Below are positions 6,632 through 55,006 of a stretch of 64,000 nt of DNA, piece after piece. The notes under the pieces were generated by a model. That model ran no database searches, was not told where the DNA came from, and worked only from the letters and a program-made list of their open reading frames with translations. Each line of letters begins with the position of its first letter. Positions within the stretch are counted from its first letter, which is position 1. Both the position numbers and the translations under genes were made by a program. Origin of the DNA: a virus; IMG/VR virus record IMGVR_UViG_3300033149_003931, positions 28,568 to 92,567 of that record. The stretch is one strand, 5' to 3'.

Positions 6632-7417
6632 ATGAGTTTATTTGGTGTAATACGAGATGCTTTAACTGGAATTACTGCAAGTGTTGAAAGCGAGGGTAAT
6701 TTAGCTGTAATCGCTAAAAATCAGCATTGGCCAATTATTGATTTATTTATGCACAAACATCAATTAACTATAACAATTGATGGTACAACTTCTATCGGTG
6801 ATAAGATAGTTACTCTTGTTGCTGGACATGGTGTTATTAATGGAAATTGGGTGGGTTTTGAACAGGCCGGAAACTTTTATGAAGGTGTTGTAATTAATGT
6901 ATCAGTAAATGATATTGAACTTGATTCCCCTTTAGATTATGCTTTTGATAGTAATGCTGTAGCCTATATACATTCTAGGGATATGAATATTGATGGTTCT
7001 ACTACAACACAAATATTTCATATTCATCCACCAACGGGGCAGAAATGGGATATTACTGGATTAACTTTTACTTTAGAGGATAATGTAATTATGGATTCTT
7101 CTAAATTTGGCGGAATTACAGCCTTAACTGAGGGGGTTGTATTACGGGTAGAAAATAGTACAATTAAAAATATTTTTAATGTTAAAACAAATGGGGGTTT
7201 TTCCGCAAGATCATGTTTTTCAGAATATGATGCCAAAGCCCCCGCAGGTGTATATGGTTTTCGTATATGTACTGTTTTTGCGGGGCAGGAAAATCGGGGT
7301 GTAACTATTCGTTTAAACGGAGATGTTGATGATGAATTACAACTACTTATTCAAGATGATTTATCAGCTTTAAGTAGATTTACCTGTATTGCTCATGGGC
7401 ATATAGTAATTGAATAA
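6632..7417 (+). CDS. Hypothetical virion protein
   Basis: Coupled ORF with SD; beta-rich; FGGITALTEG..IQDDLS motif. Confidence 0.45.
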   Translation: MSLFGVIRDALTGITASVESEGNLAVIAKNQHWPIIDLFMHKHQLTITIDGTTSIGDKIVTLVAGHGVINGNWVGFEQAGNFYEGVVINVSVNDIELDSPLDYAFDSNAVAYIHSRDMNIDGSTTTQIFHIHPPTGQKWDITGLTFTLEDNVIMDSSKFGGITALTEGVVLRVENSTIKNIFNVKTNGGFSARSCFSEYDAKAPAGVYGFRICTVFAGQENRGVTIRLNGDVDDELQLLIQDDLSALSRFTCIAHGHIVIE

Positions 7418-7427
7418 ACCGGTATAA

Positions 7428-7784
7428 ATGGACGGAGTACTTATGATTAAATGTAGAAATTGTGGTTTTGAATTTGATGATTTAAAACAATCTGAGGTTG
7501 TTATGGGTGGAGTAAAATGCCCTAAATGTAATGCTATTGTGGATCAAGAGGGGAATGTTTTTAAAAAGGCTGGGGTTAATTTTTTCTCCCATTTGGTTAA
7601 AATTAGAAAACCTTATTTAGATACAAGAGGTACATATACGTGTGAGTGTATTGATTGTGCCTATGTTAAGGAGTCTAAAAAGCACTGTAAAGATATTAAA
7701 TGTCCCAAGTGTGGGGGTGAAATGCGAAGAAAAAATCGTCCGGGTTCGGGAAAGAAGGCTGAGGGAATTGAAAGCGGAAGCTAA
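7428..7784 (+). CDS. Double zinc-ribbon protein
   Basis: CRNC..CPKC and CIDC..CPKC pairs. Confidence 0.55.
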   Translation: MDGVLMIKCRNCGFEFDDLKQSEVVMGGVKCPKCNAIVDQEGNVFKKAGVNFFSHLVKIRKPYLDTRGTYTCECIDCAYVKESKKHCKDIKCPKCGGEMRRKNRPGSGKKAEGIESGS

Positions 7785-7940
7785 AGAACGGAGTTAGCGA
7801 GATATTCTCTACAAGGTAGAGTTGTTGGCATTTCTTGGGATTGTTGGCCCAAAAATAACAGTCCTTGAATTTACAAAGGAGGGTTTATGTTTTTAAAAGG
7901 AGGTACGTCATGATGTAGAAACCGAAAGGAGGTATACGTC

Positions 7941-8111
7941 ATGGCTAAAGCCCAAAAATGTAAAAGCGGGAATAAAGCCAAAGGTCGTCAGTCTGATCGC
8001 CATAAGATCGAGTATGAACGTCAAAGAATTCGTACCGAAGCCAACAAGCGTAAAAGACGCCGAAGACATTTGGAAAAACACCTGAATGATTTGCAAGCTC
8101 AAAATGTATAA
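7941..8111 (+). CDS. Unannotated 56-aa Arg/Lys-rich protein (MAKAQKCKSG...ANKRKRRRRHLEKHLNDLQAQNV)
   Basis: Hand translation; perfect SD AAAGGAGGT 7 nt upstream; too short for the ORF track. Confidence 0.8.
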   Translation: MAKAQKCKSGNKAKGRQSDRHKIEYERQRIRTEANKRKRRRRHLEKHLNDLQAQNV

Positions 8112-8114
8112 AAT

Positions 8115-8254
8115 GGGGTGGGGATTCCCGCCCGTCCGGAGGGTCTGAAATACGGCTTGACTGTGTGGTAGGACTAACTCCGTTTAGGGGCACCTTTCGG
8201 GGTGTCCCTTATGACTGAACCCTGAATGTTCACTAAAAGGTAAACATTAGGTTC
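8115..8254 (+). other. Chain of four hairpins including a UUCG-capped 10-bp stem (terminator and/or structured 3' RNA)
   Basis: GGGTGGG-GATT-CCCGCCC; CGGAG.GGTCT/GGACT.CTCCG; AGGGGCACCT-TTCG-GGGTGTCCCT; GAACC.AATGTT/AACATT.GGTTC. Confidence 0.55.
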
Positions 8255-8558
8255 TGAGTATACATTATGATACCCGCCCGGGGCCATCCGGCCCACCTTC
8301 AATATTATAATTATTTATTATTAATACTATACAGCCTGCCTGATCGGGTATAAAATATCAAAATTGATGCGTTAAGGCCCGATTTCCCGATTAATACAGC
8401 ATAAAAGCGATATTAACCAACCTCGACCCGGCCAAAGGCCGCCCCTCGGTTGAGAGTAAACCATTAAAATCTATCAATATTATGGAAATTAATACATAAT
8501 CAGTCTTAGCCGCTTTTTAAAATAAGTGGGCAGACTTGATACTTACCTGTGCGGTGGA

Positions 8559-8882
8559 ACGTCCTCCGGAGGCAGCCTCGGGAATCGCTCCGCTCTCCCT
8601 CGGCGCCTTCCGGTTCTGATCCGTCTATTCTGGACAGGAATCTGGACAATATGTCCAGTTACCGGATTCGTCCACTATTTAGTGGACATTACCAGTTATT
8701 TATGGGGTACCAGCAAGCCTGACCGCCTGCTGGCGGTAGACTTCCGGCATATTCGGAATGGGGCCCAGATCCGGAAGAGAGGCCTACAGAAGGCATCCTG
8801 AAGCGATTGGAGGCTATAATCGTGTCATAATCTGAAGCGTTTAGAGATCCAAATCGGGGCGACGGCGTAGCCGGAGACACGT
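8559..8882 (+). ncRNA. Candidate large multibranched ncRNA, family unassigned
   Basis: At least nine nested helices found by eye; G.U wobbles favour the + strand; GC-rich island with no convincing ORF. Confidence 0.55.
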
Positions 8883-8938
8883 ATTTGATAGGAATATAGC
8901 CTGTAATAGGGAATTATAAGGAATATGGGTGGAAGACC

Positions 8939-9036
8939 TGCTGGAGGGTAGGATTTTTACCTACTAGCTTGTCGTTGATTGCTTAAAGACTTGAAGTACA
9001 GATTACTCCGTGCGTGTTCATCACGCCACCTCTGGC
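8939..9036 (-). ncRNA. tRNA-like element (D-arm, T-arm, interrupted acceptor stem, no anticodon arm)
   Basis: GCCAGAGG-TG-GCGTG(ATGAA)CACGC-ACGGA(GTAA)TCTGT...GTAGG(TAAAAAT)CCTAC-CCTCCAGCA. Confidence 0.6.
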
Positions 9037-9166
9037 AAGGCTTTCTTTGGTCAGACGGTGCTTTCCCAACATCACATTAAGCAGTTATCATATGTTCTGT
9101 TTAACTTCCTTATCCCACCGCCGAAATCCGGAAGAATTAGATAGTTGGGAGTCTAATATAAATAAT

Positions 9167-9514
9167 CTACATATTTCTTAACTGATCGCCGGCTTTTGAT
9201 CCACGAATACCTGAATTATTTAACACGATTAAACTCGGTGATATTTCAGAATACTTTTTAAGAATATCTCCATGACAGGGTTTGGGGGCGCACCAACAGG
9301 CGATTACCTTGTTTCTAAGTTCTGGGAGGGCCTTAAGGAGATCCGGGCGGGATAAAAGGTATTTCTCGTATTTTTGAATGACTTCGGCACGATCACCGTC
9401 TTTTCCAATAACGAAGGGATTAGCCCATTTACTATTGATAGGAAATCGAGGATTCCAACGTCCAATATAAATATCAAATTTTTCTCTATAACAATGAACT
9501 ATTTTAATTGACAT
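9167..9514 (-). CDS. DUF4326-like protein
   Basis: YIGR..SKWANPF..ACWCAPKPCHGD. Confidence 0.8.
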   Translation of the reverse strand: MSIKIVHCYREKFDIYIGRWNPRFPINSKWANPFVIGKDGDRAEVIQKYEKYLLSRPDLLKALPELRNKVIACWCAPKPCHGDILKKYSEISPSLIVLNNSGIRGSKAGDQLRNM

Positions 9515-9614
9515 ATTTTCTCCAAATATTGATTAGTTTGCGGCTTTTCCGCAAGAAAGATATATTTTATGGTTTTGTCAATCTTAGACTGAGTTTTATC
9601 TAAAAGTTTTATAG

Positions 9615-9833
9615 TCATTTTGCTTTTGCCTTAATAATATTTGTTAATGCTCGAACAGCGTCAGCACACGAGACACCACATTGTCCCAAACCTTTGGCTA
9701 CTGTAATAATACTGGATTCAATAACCTCATCGGAAATGTCAGATAAATCATAACCAAAGTCTTTAAGAGATTTTCGGATATTCTTTAATATTTTCTTTCG
9801 TCTGAATTCCTGTAATTTTTTTATTATAAACAT
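9615..9833 (-). CDS. Hypothetical protein
   Basis: Coupled ORF with SD. Confidence 0.5.
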   Translation of the reverse strand: MFIIKKLQEFRRKKILKNIRKSLKDFGYDLSDISDEVIESSIITVAKGLGQCGVSCADAVRALTNIIKAKAK

Positions 9834-10342: not shown

Positions 10343-10380
10343 AAGTTTCTTTTAGGTTTAATTAATATTAGAAATGCCTA

Positions 10381-10620
10381 GTCTGACTATGCTTTTTTAA
10401 CACAGAATAAACCATAAACGATTGTATAACCCCATACTGTATGTGTCCGTATGCGACTGAGCTGATTGTTATACTACCCAAACCTGTTGGTGTTACGTGT
10501 CCCACGCCTCTCGCTTTAACCTTCAGGTATCCCGACGATTTGTTTATGGTATCAGACCACGCGCTACTCACCCGAATTTCTTGTATGTGATTCGAACTTA
10601 TAAAGAGAGATAACCTCGGG
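10381..10620. ncRNA. Candidate structured intergenic RNA (probably - strand)
   Basis: GTCTGA/TCAGAC, ACCATAAAC/GTTTATGGT, GTATAAC/GTTATAC and ACCTG/CAGGT helices; adjacent hairpin with a GTTCGAATC T-loop motif on the - strand. Confidence 0.5.
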
Positions 10621-10642
10621 CCTAAGCCTTGTCTGTCTGATG

Positions 10643-48893: not shown

Positions 48894-49766
48894 TCAAAAA
48901 TTTCCCGGGGCCACCTGTAAACAGGTTAAGCCAAGCTCTCGCCACATCTGAACGACTTGATCGCGGTCATCTAAAATGAAATCAATATTATATTTACCCC
49001 GGATATTTTCATCAAATAATTCTCTTTTAATAATAGAATCTTTACGTACGTCTCCTGTCTTTCTCATGAATATTTTTAATTCTTTATCCATGACCTGAAC
49101 GTTCTTTTTAATCCACTGTATTGACTGCCTCTTACAACTATCATCTCTACCTGACATAAAGATTACATCACCCTGTCCGTAAGAGAGGTAATCTTCAACG
49201 ATTTGGATAACCGGATCATTTGGTAAATCGGTATCGCATTTATCATACTCATAAGGAGTCCGCCCATTATGTAAACAAATAGTTCCGTCCAAATCACAAA
49301 TAATCGTAGCAGGTAATCCTTCAATGTATTCTATTTTTGTTATTTCAGGTTTGAGATACAGATCATAAAATTTTCGGATCACCTTTTCACCCACCGAGTT
49401 AGCCCGTTTTAAGTCACGTTCAATACATTTTTCTAAAGATAGATCAAAGATCTTAGTTTCAAACTGCAATATGCGTTCAGTCCCATAATACTCATGGATA
49501 AACCGAATCTTACGATCAAAATTTATTGGATTCAAATGTGTAGCATCAACTATTATATTATACCCACTATCTAAGGCGTCCGTGATACAAGATTTTTCCA
49601 TCCGGGAAATTAAGTCCTCCTGTTTAGGTAGCCAATACTTACCCCGCATACGCCTTAAATCATCACGGCTAACCCGAATCCAGTCTATATTCTTCTCACA
49701 GTATGCTCGGGCCCATGTTGACTTACCACTAGCGGGAAGCCCTTGGGTAAAGATTACTTTAGACAT
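48894..49766 (-). CDS. pseT: Polynucleotide kinase/3'-phosphatase (T4 PseT-like)
   Basis: GLPASGKST, RDDLR; CDLDGT, SGR, DDR. Confidence 0.9.
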   Translation of the reverse strand: MSKVIFTQGLPASGKSTWARAYCEKNIDWIRVSRDDLRRMRGKYWLPKQEDLISRMEKSCITDALDSGYNIIVDATHLNPINFDRKIRFIHEYYGTERILQFETKIFDLSLEKCIERDLKRANSVGEKVIRKFYDLYLKPEITKIEYIEGLPATIICDLDGTICLHNGRTPYEYDKCDTDLPNDPVIQIVEDYLSYGQGDVIFMSGRDDSCKRQSIQWIKKNVQVMDKELKIFMRKTGDVRKDSIIKRELFDENIRGKYNIDFILDDRDQVVQMWRELGLTCLQVAPGNF

Positions 49767-53748: not shown

Positions 53749-53880
53749 ATAGTAATTTTCATCTAATTTCTCGATTCTTGCAAGATCCCTTTGAACGCAC
53801 TCTTTTAAAGCTTCTATATTAAACTTTGCCAAGATCTTCTTCGGCCCAGCAGTTTATGGGGGCCAACTATGACGACAAGA
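53749..53880 (-). pseudogene. Degraded paralog of the ParB-like gene
   Basis: HSW..HKLLGR..KILAKF recoverable across two small indels. Confidence 0.6.
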
Positions 53881-55006
53881 GCTTATTTTTTCTACTTTGG
53901 TTCTTAATTTGTTGGAATTCATAGGAAATATTTTTAAAGGGCTTCTCATATTCGGGCCGGATCATCTTCCAAATAATATCTTTATATGGTTTTCCTCTCC
54001 ACATAGCAAACAATACAGAATGATAACGATGTTTCTGAATTTTTTTCGCGGTTTCACTAAGTATACCATATTCTTTAGCCTCTGTCAAGGTGGGTAAATG
54101 ATAAAGTAGAGTTTTGCAGAGCCCCATAATAAGATCATATTCTTTTTTTAATTTATCTGTCTGATCCTTCAACCAAGCATAGAATTCATTCGGTACTCTA
54201 TCAATAATTTGATCTATTGGTTGATTATTTCGAAGTAATGTCCAAATCGTTTTTGTACTTACTCCGGTAAGAATTTTGTGGAGTCTGACATATTCTGCAA
54301 ATTTAACCTTAACCCTAAAATTTTCCTTTGTTTTTAAAACAAAACCCTCTTTGTTATCCGCTTCGGGTAATTTTAGTTTAGAAAAAAATCCATAATGCAC
54401 GACAAGGGGAATATTATAGGAATCAGCAAACTTTTTCATTCTAGCATACGACCACTCATTACCCGTTTCTTTATGAATTACCGCTAATAAAATTAAATCT
54501 CTACGATCCCCATAATTTACGACTATTCGATTCTTCGGGTAAATGATTTCCCATAAAAAAGTATATTCAGATGACCAAAGAGCTAAGACAGACTGTTTAA
54601 AACTATCAAACTTTTCTGTGAGTATTTTTTCCGCTTCTTTAGCTTGTTCACTTTCAAAACTTCCTCGGGTAGCAATACACAATTTTCCATTAACATCTTC
54701 ATACATAATACCTAAAGACCCATCAATTTTATCAAAAACCGCCCAAGACTCATTCTGTCTTACAGGTAATGGGCCAAGAAAAGAATTCTCCGCGTATTCT
54801 CCATAATTAAAGAATTTCTTAAAAGGACGGGCAACAATATGCCCTTTACCATCTAAAATTAATCCCCGGCAATTACGGGTGGCCTCGTTCCAAAATCTCG
54901 CATATTGAGTCTTTGCAGTATAATTGTAAATAAAATAATCCTGCAAAGGGTGCTTTCTTTTAGTAATATAACCCTGTTCAATAAGTTTTTGATCAATTTT
55001 TATCAT
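53867..55006 (-). CDS. rnlA: RNA ligase 1 (T4 RnlA-like)
   Basis: CRGLI, KFFN, KIDGSLG, ATRGSF, EGFV, RVKVKF..Y. Confidence 0.9.
   Translation of the reverse strand: MIKIDQKLIEQGYITKRKHPLQDYFIYNYTAKTQYARFWNEATRNCRGLILDGKGHIVARPFKKFFNYGEYAENSFLGPLPVRQNESWAVFDKIDGSLGIMYEDVNGKLCIATRGSFESEQAKEAEKILTEKFDSFKQSVLALWSSEYTFLWEIIYPKNRIVVNYGDRRDLILLAVIHKETGNEWSYARMKKFADSYNIPLVVHYGFFSKLKLPEADNKEGFVLKTKENFRVKVKFAEYVRLHKILTGVSTKTIWTLLRNNQPIDQIIDRVPNEFYAWLKDQTDKLKKEYDLIMGLCKTLLYHLPTLTEAKEYGILSETAKKIQKHRYHSVLFAMWRGKPYKDIIWKMIRPEYEKPFKNISYEFQQIKNQSRKNKLLSS

What the first reader, a model, noticed from the sequence alone, without database searches (positions are those of the whole stretch)
8939..9036. tRNA mimic lacking an anticodon arm
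Seen on the - strand: an 8-nt acceptor-like stem with a 2x2 mismatch, a TG linker and a 5-bp D-like arm. A GUAA-capped hairpin plus ~33 nt replace the anticodon and variable arms. A 5-bp T-arm with a 7-nt loop (TAAAAAT) runs directly into the 3' acceptor strand. Known: this tRNA-like geometry is recognised by RNase P/Z and is also used by tmRNA and bacterial Y RNAs. Inference: a processing signal at the end of the minus-strand operon, or a decoy for tRNA-targeting defence nucleases, consistent with the phage's RNA-repair module.
Basis: partly seen in the sequence, partly recalled or inferred. Interest (0 to 1): 0.75.

Follow-up and report, generated by a model that had tools for sequence, protein, structure and literature searches.

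The report
Worn-down tRNA gene in phage
The 98-base "tRNA mimic" is really there and really descends from a tRNA, but it is most likely the eroded remnant of a tyrosine-type tRNA gene that related phages still carry intact, which is an ordinary finding.

Summary
The geometry alone is at chance level: 0.53 such hits are expected per shuffled window. The T arm is not chance. GTAGG-TAAAAAT-CCTAC is two changes from the T arm of the tRNA-Tyr of a related phage, and one change from a T-arm type found in ten other phage tRNA-Tyr genes. It is the only one of 172 comparable hairpins in the window that resembles any real T arm (per-hairpin null 2e-4). The rest aligns weakly with long-variable-arm tRNAs. 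The element fails ARAGORN, Rfam tRNA, tRNA-Sec, tmRNA and YrlA. It has no 7-base anticodon loop, no D-loop GG, no T-loop UUC and no CCA. Its acceptor stem has a 2x2 mismatch and loses to another hairpin when the flanks are included. The five related phages examined carry one or two intact tRNAs each; this complete 92.5-kb phage has none. None of them, nor some 130 other loci, has a copy of the element. Best reading (0.55): a decayed tRNA gene. A working processing signal or nuclease decoy (about 0.2) is neither supported nor excluded. No RNA data could be obtained. This scan has reported similar phage tRNA relics on other DNA.

The parts
9029..9036 (-). 5' acceptor-like strand GCCAGAGG. In a 7-bp tRNA frame the stem is 9035-9029.
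   Evidence: Pairs with 8940-8947, with a C.A/A.C tandem mismatch.
9027..9028 (-). UG linker, equivalent to tRNA positions U8 and 9.
   Evidence: The same TG occurs in the tRNA-Tyr of relative G001.
9012..9026 (-). D-like arm GCGUG-AUGAA-CACGC. It can also be read as a 3-bp GCG/CGC stem with a 9-nt loop, as in class II tRNAs. There is no GG in the loop.
   Evidence: The relaxed ARAGORN drawing uses the 3-bp reading.
8998..9011 (-). GUAA-capped hairpin ACGGA/UCUGU. It stands where the anticodon arm should be. ACGG and UCUGUA match the 5' anticodon stem and loop, through the GUA anticodon, of the G001 tRNA-Tyr, separated by 5 extra bases.
8965..8997 (-). 33-nt mostly unpaired spacer in place of the variable arm. 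It contains GUCUUU, also present in the variable loop of the G001 tRNA-Tyr.
8948..8964 (-). T arm GUAGG-UAAAAAU-CCUAC. G53, U54, A58 and C61 are kept; U55 and C56 are replaced by AA.
8940..8947 (-). 3' acceptor-like strand CCUCCAGC, followed by A (8939) and GGU. No CCA.
9052..9060 (-). Upstream CACCGUCUG, which pairs with CAGAGGUG (9034-9027) and displaces the acceptor helix in the longer transcript.
9167..9514 (-). Last gene of the minus-strand operon: DUF4326 protein of 115 aa, with about 25 extra C-terminal residues compared with its homologs. The element lies 130 nt downstream, and no terminator is predicted between them.

Best explanation
The element is the eroded remnant of a phage class II (long-variable-arm) tRNA gene, most probably a tRNA-Tyr. 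It lies on the same strand as the early/middle operon, as the intact tRNA-Tyr genes do in related phages. It keeps the tRNA frame: acceptor strands, U8, G10, an almost intact T arm and the direct T-arm/acceptor junction. It has lost everything needed for decoding and for the tRNA elbow. If it is transcribed, that is as the 3' untranslated tail of the DUF4326 operon, and it has no demonstrated function. Shown: tRNA-like sequence and geometry, failure of all tRNA models, and absence from relatives. Inferred: descent from tRNA-Tyr specifically, and loss of function.
For: (1) T arm. It is 2 mismatches from GTAGG-TTCAAAT-CCTAC of the G001 tRNA-Tyr. It is 1 mismatch from GTAGG-TTAAAAT-CCTAC-C, which occurs in 31 IMG/VR contigs; 19 of those are in called tRNAs, namely 10 tRNA-Tyr(GTA), 8 tRNA-Cys and 1 of unassigned type. 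It is an outlier among the 172 window hairpins, with a null P of 2e-4. The test is specific in the relatives. (2) Whole-element alignment to the G001 tRNA-Tyr gives z 5.7 (0 of 500 shuffles). Without the T arm z is 2.6-3.0, second of 152 tRNAs, and four of the top five are the usual long-arm types Ser, Tyr and Leu. Shared colinear blocks are TGGC, ACGG, TCTGTA, GTCTTT and the T arm. (3) Relatives with 68-84% identical terminase carry 1-2 intact tRNAs each. These include tRNA-Tyr in G001, directly after the p172 homolog on the operon strand, and in G003. This complete genome has none. (4) Signs of decay: tandem mismatch in the acceptor, no 7-nt anticodon loop, no G18/G19, no U55/C56, no CCA. 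There is no Rfam hit even at E<=10. ARAGORN calls it only at 60-80% thresholds, where it also makes spurious calls nearby. (5) No copy in the 5 relatives or in 133 loci by nhmmer or a covariance model. (6) The acceptor is not formed in 282-nt context, z -0.07. (7) tRNAscan-SE-predicted tRNA pseudogenes are tabulated for T4-like phages (PMC1524935).
Against: The D-like arm and the GUAA hairpin are perfect 5-bp stems, and the T stem is intact. That is tidier than simple neutral decay predicts, and the isolated fold is modestly better than shuffles (z -2.46). Flanks of the element and of the relatives' tRNA-Tyr genes share no similarity, so orthology by position is not shown. Similarity outside the T arm is only at the edge of significance (top z of about 3 among 152), so a Tyr origin rather than Ser or Leu is not proven. 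Phage genomes usually delete dead DNA quickly, yet this piece sits in a 1.4-kb non-coding island that also holds conserved elements.
Confidence: 0.55

Rival explanations
1. It is a working, non-decoding tRNA-shaped RNA derived from a tRNA-Tyr. RNase P or RNase Z could cut at it to define or stabilise the 3' end of the minus-strand operon, or it could act as a decoy for a tRNA-targeting defence nuclease.
For: The tRNA frame is kept, with clean D-like, GNRA-capped and T stems. The phage encodes an Rnl1-type RNA ligase and an AAA_33 kinase ORF of about 290 aa, the size of T4 Pnkp, so it probably meets tRNA-cleaving defences. Phage tRNA-Tyr is a known counter to the tRNA-Tyr-degrading Retron-Eco7 (PMC11555353, PMC12673091). 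The YrlA tRNA-like domain has been proposed as a nuclease inhibitor (PMC7790460). Other uncalled tRNA-like elements with the same T arm sit inside phage tRNA arrays.
Against: No homolog, so no conservation or covariation. The elements elsewhere that share the T arm are unrelated outside it. The one large group of 63 is near-identical copies from one phage lineage with no covariation. The acceptor has a tandem mismatch and is outcompeted in context. Elbow nucleotides and CCA are missing. There is no anticodon loop for an anticodon nuclease to bind.
Confidence: 0.2
2. The stretch belongs to something larger or different: the 3' part of a + strand RNA that continues from the conserved GC-rich element at about 8528-8883, or a DNA-level element of the non-coding island. 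On this reading the tRNA-like fold is incidental to its present role.
For: The element lies in a 1.4-kb ORF-poor island with GC 0.42-0.51 against about 0.33 around it. The neighbouring 8543-8697 stretch is conserved in relatives G004 and G001. The D and T stems are all Watson-Crick, so they form on either strand; the + strand fold is -27.2 kcal/mol.
Against: In G001 the conserved neighbour is present without any tRNA-like piece, in a gap of only about 300 nt. The G.U pair in the GUAA hairpin and the T-arm orientation fit the - strand. The + strand fold has z of only -1.42.
Confidence: 0.1
3. It is a chance fold with no tRNA ancestry.
For: The geometric descriptor is expected 0.53 times per shuffled window. 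Thermodynamic support is weak. No tRNA model scores it.
Against: The T-arm match to real T arms has P of 2e-4 for this hairpin. Multiplied by the 0.53 geometry expectation, that is on the order of 1e-4 per window. U8, G10, G53, U54, A58 and C61 are in register, and colinear matches to a tRNA-Tyr add to this.
Confidence: 0.05

Closest known systems
Phage tRNA genes and their pseudogenes or remnants, such as the predicted tRNA pseudogenes tabulated for T4-like phages (PMC1524935)
   Same: tRNA-derived sequence on the operon strand. T arm and acceptor frame retained and decoding parts lost. tRNA content varies among close relatives.
   Different: It stands alone at the end of an operon in a phage with no intact tRNA, rather than inside a tRNA array. 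It carries 5-nt and roughly 11-13-nt insertions that give a 98-nt length.
tRNA-Tyr(GTA) of the related phage G001 (L048:13771-13858), and phage tRNA-Tyr genes with T arm GTAGG-TTAAAAT-CCTAC-C (for example in L151, L153, L155)
   Same: T arm with 1-2 differences over 17 nt, the flanking C also shared. TG at positions 8-9, ACGG/TCTGTA in the anticodon region, GTCTTT in the variable loop. Same strand as the shared early genes.
   Different: No anticodon loop, no long variable-arm helix, mismatched acceptor, no CCA, and different flanking genes.
YrlA, a bacterial Y RNA with a tRNA-like domain (Rfam RF02553; PMC7790460 citing Chen et al. 2014)
   Same: Non-decoding RNA with acceptor-like, D-like and T-like parts. 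A decoy role has been suggested for YrlA.
   Different: No RF02553 match at E<=10. No Ro60/TROVE gene in the phage. No Ro-binding helix.
tmRNA tRNA-like domain
   Same: Acceptor closed by distant 5' and 3' ends, T arm abutting the 3' strand, no anticodon arm.
   Different: ARAGORN finds no tmRNA and there is no Rfam tmRNA hit. No G3.U70 pair, no tag reading frame with the usual ending, no pseudoknots, and only 98 nt.
Uncalled tRNA-like elements inside phage tRNA arrays that share the T arm GTAGG-T(A/G)AAAAT-CCTAC-C (L134/L173 group, L136, L140)
   Same: Same T arm with U55 and C56 lost. Closing helix abutting the T arm. Short-looped hairpins instead of an anticodon arm.
   Different: No sequence similarity outside the T arm. 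They sit in tRNA arrays. Their own function or conservation is not established.

Membership tests
tRNA (Rfam RF00005; ARAGORN) | Scores above threshold with tRNA covariance or heuristic models | tested here: not met
   ARAGORN default gives 0 genes. RF00005 has no match at E<=10 in the whole genome or in the region.
tRNA (Rfam RF00005; ARAGORN) | 5-bp anticodon stem with a 7-nt loop (U33, anticodon, R37) | tested here: not met
   A 4-nt GUAA loop and 33 unpaired nt stand in its place. An anticodon arm appears only if a 10-nt 'intron' is assumed at an 80% threshold.
tRNA (Rfam RF00005; ARAGORN) | Elbow nucleotides G18, G19 and U55, C56 | tested here: not met
   The D loop AUGAA has no GG and the T loop is UAAAAAU.
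tRNA (Rfam RF00005; ARAGORN) | T arm of 5 bp with a 7-nt loop, G53-C61, U54 and A58, abutting a 7-bp acceptor | tested here: met
   The acceptor has 5 of 7 (or 6 of 8) pairs.
tRNA pseudogene or relic | Significant sequence similarity to bona fide tRNAs in register | tested here: met
   T arm. Whole element against the G001 tRNA-Tyr: z 5.7.
tRNA pseudogene or relic | Intact counterpart in related genomes | tested here: inconclusive
   G001 and G003 carry tRNA-Tyr on the same operon strand. The flanks are not alignable and the gene order differs.
tRNA pseudogene or relic | No expression or function as a discrete RNA | not testable with these tools
   No sequencing run was listed.
tRNA-Sec (Rfam RF01852) | 8/5 acceptor/T stack, 6-bp D stem, UCA anticodon, model score | tested here: not met
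   Only a relaxed ARAGORN call with an invented intron. No Rfam hit at E<=10. The D stem is 5 bp at most.
tmRNA | Tag reading frame, pseudoknots, G.U at 3:70, detection by ARAGORN or Rfam | tested here: not met
YrlA / Y RNA | RF02553 match and a Ro60 (TROVE) partner gene | tested here: not met
Phage attP core copied from a host tRNA 3' end | Integrase gene, and identity to a host tRNA 3' half | tested here: not met
   No tyrosine-type integrase (PF00589) in the genome. The 22-mer of T arm plus acceptor is absent from 185,579 GTDB genomes.

The most novel reading that the evidence does not exclude
A tRNA-Tyr gene has been remodelled into a non-decoding tRNA-shaped RNA that the phage still uses. 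It could be a 3'-end processing or stability module of the early operon, or bait for a tRNA-Tyr-directed defence nuclease, in a phage that also carries an Rnl1 ligase and a Pnkp-like kinase.
Probability: 0.15. Interest if true: 0.6.

Novelty: new member of a known kind. Interest (0 to 1): 0.2.

Why it matters
If it is a relic, it only documents gain and loss of tRNA genes in one clade of uncultured ~90-kb phages, with tRNA-Tyr lost here and kept in relatives. That is of minor interest. It would matter more if the piece proved to be a maintained RNA. Phage tRNA-Tyr is a known answer to tRNA-Tyr-degrading defence (PMC11555353), and an anticodon-less derivative acting as bait or as a processing signal would be a new counter-defence or gene-expression device. 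Nothing found here supports that step.

Tried and rejected
The contigs encoding the closest DUF4326 homolog (P0001, 88% identical) could therefore not be fetched.
- Sequencing runs: none was listed for 7400-9600.
- DNA searches for homologs found nothing: INPHARED phages (only T-arm/acceptor matches to real tRNAs such as crAss001 tRNA-Ile); 5 relatives; 133 loci by nhmmer; single-sequence covariance model R1 over 771 kb (the next best hit is a true tRNA-Met at E 1.2).
- A pattern of D stem plus T stem in IMG/VR gave one hit, a genuine unrelated tRNA on the other strand.
- Neighbour proteins p261 and p172 gave no loci in IMG/VR. The DUF4326 loci were too distant to help.
- Decayed protein gene: six-frame pieces of 8100-9300 match nothing in the relatives apart from the DUF4326 tail. 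The local ORFs look spurious.
- attP reading rejected. tmRNA, YrlA and tRNA-Sec readings rejected.
- Idea of a family defined by the UAAAAAU T loop: rejected. The 7 IMG/VR contigs with the exact 18-mer share nothing else. No other stems carry this loop in 1.25 Mb of loci. The UGAAAAU group of 63 is one near-identical lineage.
- Second tRNA relic in the 10343-10642 gap: the GTTCGAATC there is not a 5-7-5 T arm and was not flagged.

Full report
**Setting.** The window is bases 28568-92567 of a complete 92,567-bp phage genome with direct terminal repeats, from IMG/VR. Plus-strand tail genes end at 7784. The minus-strand operon ends with a 115-aa DUF4326 gene at 9514-9167. Between them lies a 1.4-kb ORF-poor island with GC 0.42-0.51, against about 0.33 around it. 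The finding sits 130 nt downstream of the DUF4326 stop codon on the - strand. No terminator is predicted between them.

**Observation.**
- The isolated 98 nt folds into the acceptor, D-like and T arms (-25.7 kcal/mol, z -2.46).
- ARAGORN finds no tRNA or tmRNA in the window.
- Rfam 15 gives nothing at gathering thresholds. In a permissive scan of 7400-9700 at E<=10 it gives no match to any tRNA, tRNA-like, tmRNA or Y RNA family.
- RF00005 finds nothing in the whole genome.

**Chance.** I wrote a descriptor fitted to the observation: 5-bp Watson-Crick D and T stems, a 7-nt T loop, a 2-nt linker, and 6 of 8 acceptor pairs with both ends closed.
- It finds only this site in the window, but 0.53 sites per block-shuffled window. 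A looser version finds about 200. Geometry alone is therefore unremarkable.
- The T-arm sequence changes the picture. I compared all 172 5-7-5 hairpins of the window with 104 T arms of tRNAs from related and other phage loci. This hairpin has 2 mismatches, the next best has 5, and none has 3 or 4.
- Random hairpins of matched composition reach 2 or fewer mismatches with P = 2e-4.
- In about 290 kb of five relatives, every hit at 3 or fewer mismatches is a called tRNA.
- Geometry and T-arm sequence together are expected about 1e-4 times per window. The element is tRNA-derived.

**Which tRNA.** Five related phages were examined in full or as far as their contigs reach (terminase 68-84% identical). 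They carry one or two tRNAs each.
- G001 has a tRNA-Tyr(GTA) directly after the p172 homolog, on the strand equivalent to the window's - strand. G003 also has one in that operon.
- The T arm of the G001 tRNA-Tyr is GTAGG-TTCAAAT-CCTAC-C. The element has TAAAAAT in the loop.
- Global alignment of the element to this tRNA scores z 5.7 (0 of 500 shuffles). With the T arm and 3' acceptor removed it still scores z 2.6-3.0.
- The shared colinear blocks are TGGC (positions 8-11), ACGG (5' anticodon stem), TCTGTA (anticodon loop through GTA, after a 5-nt insertion) and GTCTTT (variable loop).
- Among 152 distinct tRNAs, four of the five best partners for the 5' two-thirds are the usual long-arm types (Ser, the G001 Tyr, and two Leu). 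A top z of about 3 is only marginally beyond what 152 trials give. Tyr is therefore the best guess, not a proven origin.
- An IMG/VR scan adds support. The one-step variant GTAGG-TTAAAAT-CCTAC-C occurs in 31 contigs. Nineteen of those lie in called tRNAs: ten tRNA-Tyr(GTA), eight tRNA-Cys and one of unassigned type. The element's T arm is thus a single U55-to-A change from a T-arm type seen in called (canonical-looking) phage tRNA-Tyr genes.

**What is missing.** Read in the tRNA frame, which rests on my own knowledge of conserved tRNA positions, the element keeps U8, G10, G53, U54, A58 and C61. It lacks:
- a 7-nt anticodon loop;
- G18 and G19, and U55 and C56;
- a paired long variable arm;
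- a CCA end.

Two adjacent acceptor pairs are C.A and A.C. ARAGORN calls it only when thresholds are cut to 60-80%. It is then read as tRNA-Leu(CAA), or as tRNA-SeC(TCA) with an invented 10-nt intron. The same settings give obviously spurious calls next to it. When folded with its upstream flank (9166-8885), CACCGUCUG at 9060-9052 captures the 5' acceptor strand, and the region is no more stable than shuffles (z -0.07). The + strand folds about as well.

**Conservation.** No copy exists in the five relatives.
- BLAST and nhmmer find nothing. The neighbouring stretch 8543-8697 is detectably conserved in G004 (E 1e-6) and G001, so functional non-coding DNA can be recognised at this evolutionary distance.
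- In G001 the whole gap between the p56 and DUF4326 genes is only about 300 nt and holds no tRNA-like piece.
- A single-sequence covariance model searched over 771 kb of loci returns only the element itself and, at E 1.2, a true tRNA-Met.
- The flanks of the relatives' tRNA-Tyr genes do not align with the element's flanks.
- INPHARED phages and GTDB genomes hold no copy.

**Recurrence of the T arm.** The exact 18-mer GTAGGTAAAAATCCTACC occurs in 7 other IMG/VR contigs.
- Four lie inside tRNA arrays on the tRNA strand but are not called as tRNAs. Several have a closing helix that abuts the T arm.
- They share nothing else with the element or with each other.
- The variant with UGAAAAU occurs in 79 contigs, never inside a called tRNA. 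Of these, 62, together with L134 (which carries the UAAAAAU form), are near-identical copies of one array element from one phage lineage and show no covariation.
- I read this as follows. With this stem, T arms that keep U55 are mostly in called tRNAs (Tyr, Cys; 19 of 31), and none that lost it is. This does not define a family to which the present element belongs.

**Function.** The phage does encode a T4-Rnl1-type RNA ligase (53867-55006) and a ~290-aa ORF with an N-terminal AAA_33 kinase domain (48894-49766). PNK3P was not detected. Phage tRNA-Tyr is a documented answer to the tRNA-Tyr-degrading Retron-Eco7 (PMC11555353, PMC12673091). A decoy role has been floated for the YrlA tRNA-like domain (PMC7790460). 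None of this is evidence for the present element, which has no Ro60 partner and no YrlA match. There is also no tyrosine-type integrase (PF00589), so an attP reading fails.

**Verdict.**
- Eroded class II (Tyr-type) tRNA gene: 0.55.
- Maintained non-decoding tRNA-shaped RNA: about 0.2.
- Part of a larger or + strand element: about 0.1.
- Pure chance: about 0.05.
- The rest is open.

Earlier notes of this scan report the same kind of relic in other phages. I treated them as leads only.

Noticed in passing
window 8543-8697 (within about 8528-8883): A GC-rich stretch is conserved in relatives G004 (nhmmer E 1e-6) and G001, with shared motifs GCAGCCTCGG and CTTCCGGTT. In G001 I read two hairpin-plus-T-run sites on the + strand around it (not scanned), which suggests a small + strand RNA gene of about 165 nt. 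No Rfam match.
   Followed up: partly
window 8225-8690; G004 gap (L036 reverse strand, about 1500-1900): Four of the window's eleven GTNNACATT sites cluster within 466 nt, together with the palindrome TGGACAATATGTCCA and an AT-rich stretch at 8299-8330. Similar words (AATGTTCAC, GTATACATT, TGGACATT) recur in the G004 gap. These may be protein-binding sites, iterons or phage promoters.
   Followed up: partly
window 7941-8111 (+): An unannotated 56-aa Arg/Lys-rich ORF with a strong Shine-Dalgarno site is conserved in G001 (59%) and G004 (64%), so it is probably a real small gene.
   Followed up: partly
window 9167-9244 (-): The DUF4326 protein has about 25 extra C-terminal residues compared with over 100 homologs of 85-95 aa. 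A translated match to this last stretch of the frame occurs in G002 (tblastn E 3e-5).
   Followed up: no
L148, L151, L153, L167 (IMG/VR tRNA-Tyr and tRNA-Cys genes): Phage tRNAs with the T loop UUAAAAU (C56 changed to A) mostly have GU instead of GG in the D loop. This would be a compensating 19-56 elbow pair (U19-A56). L155 keeps GG. Read by eye from 7 sequences.
   Followed up: no
L146:160-177 region (96-nt gene): ARAGORN calls a 96-nt class II tRNA-like gene with an oversized anticodon loop ('tggc'), a proper 7-bp acceptor and an encoded ACCA. Its layout (TG, then a GCG...CGC D arm, then a middle of about 45 nt) resembles the element studied here.
   Followed up: no
L134/L173 group (62 IMG/VR contigs with the UGAAAAU form plus L134, many from sample 3300045988): A ~70-nt anticodon-less tRNA-shaped element lies in the tRNA arrays of roughly 85-250-kb phage contigs. 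It has an 8-nt acceptor with one mismatch, two short-looped hairpins and T loop UGAAAAU. The copies are nearly identical and no tRNA finder calls them.
   Followed up: partly
window 53867-55006 (-) and 48894-49766 (-): A T4 Rnl1-family RNA ligase and a ~290-aa ORF with an N-terminal AAA_33 kinase domain (Pnkp-like size). This may be a tRNA-repair pair, although the two genes lie about 4 kb apart.
   Followed up: partly
L140:5681-6305: An array of odd tRNA calls (two- and four-letter 'anticodons' and a tRNA-SeC(TCA)) precedes a ~190-nt structure closed by a long helix that abuts the same T arm.
   Followed up: no
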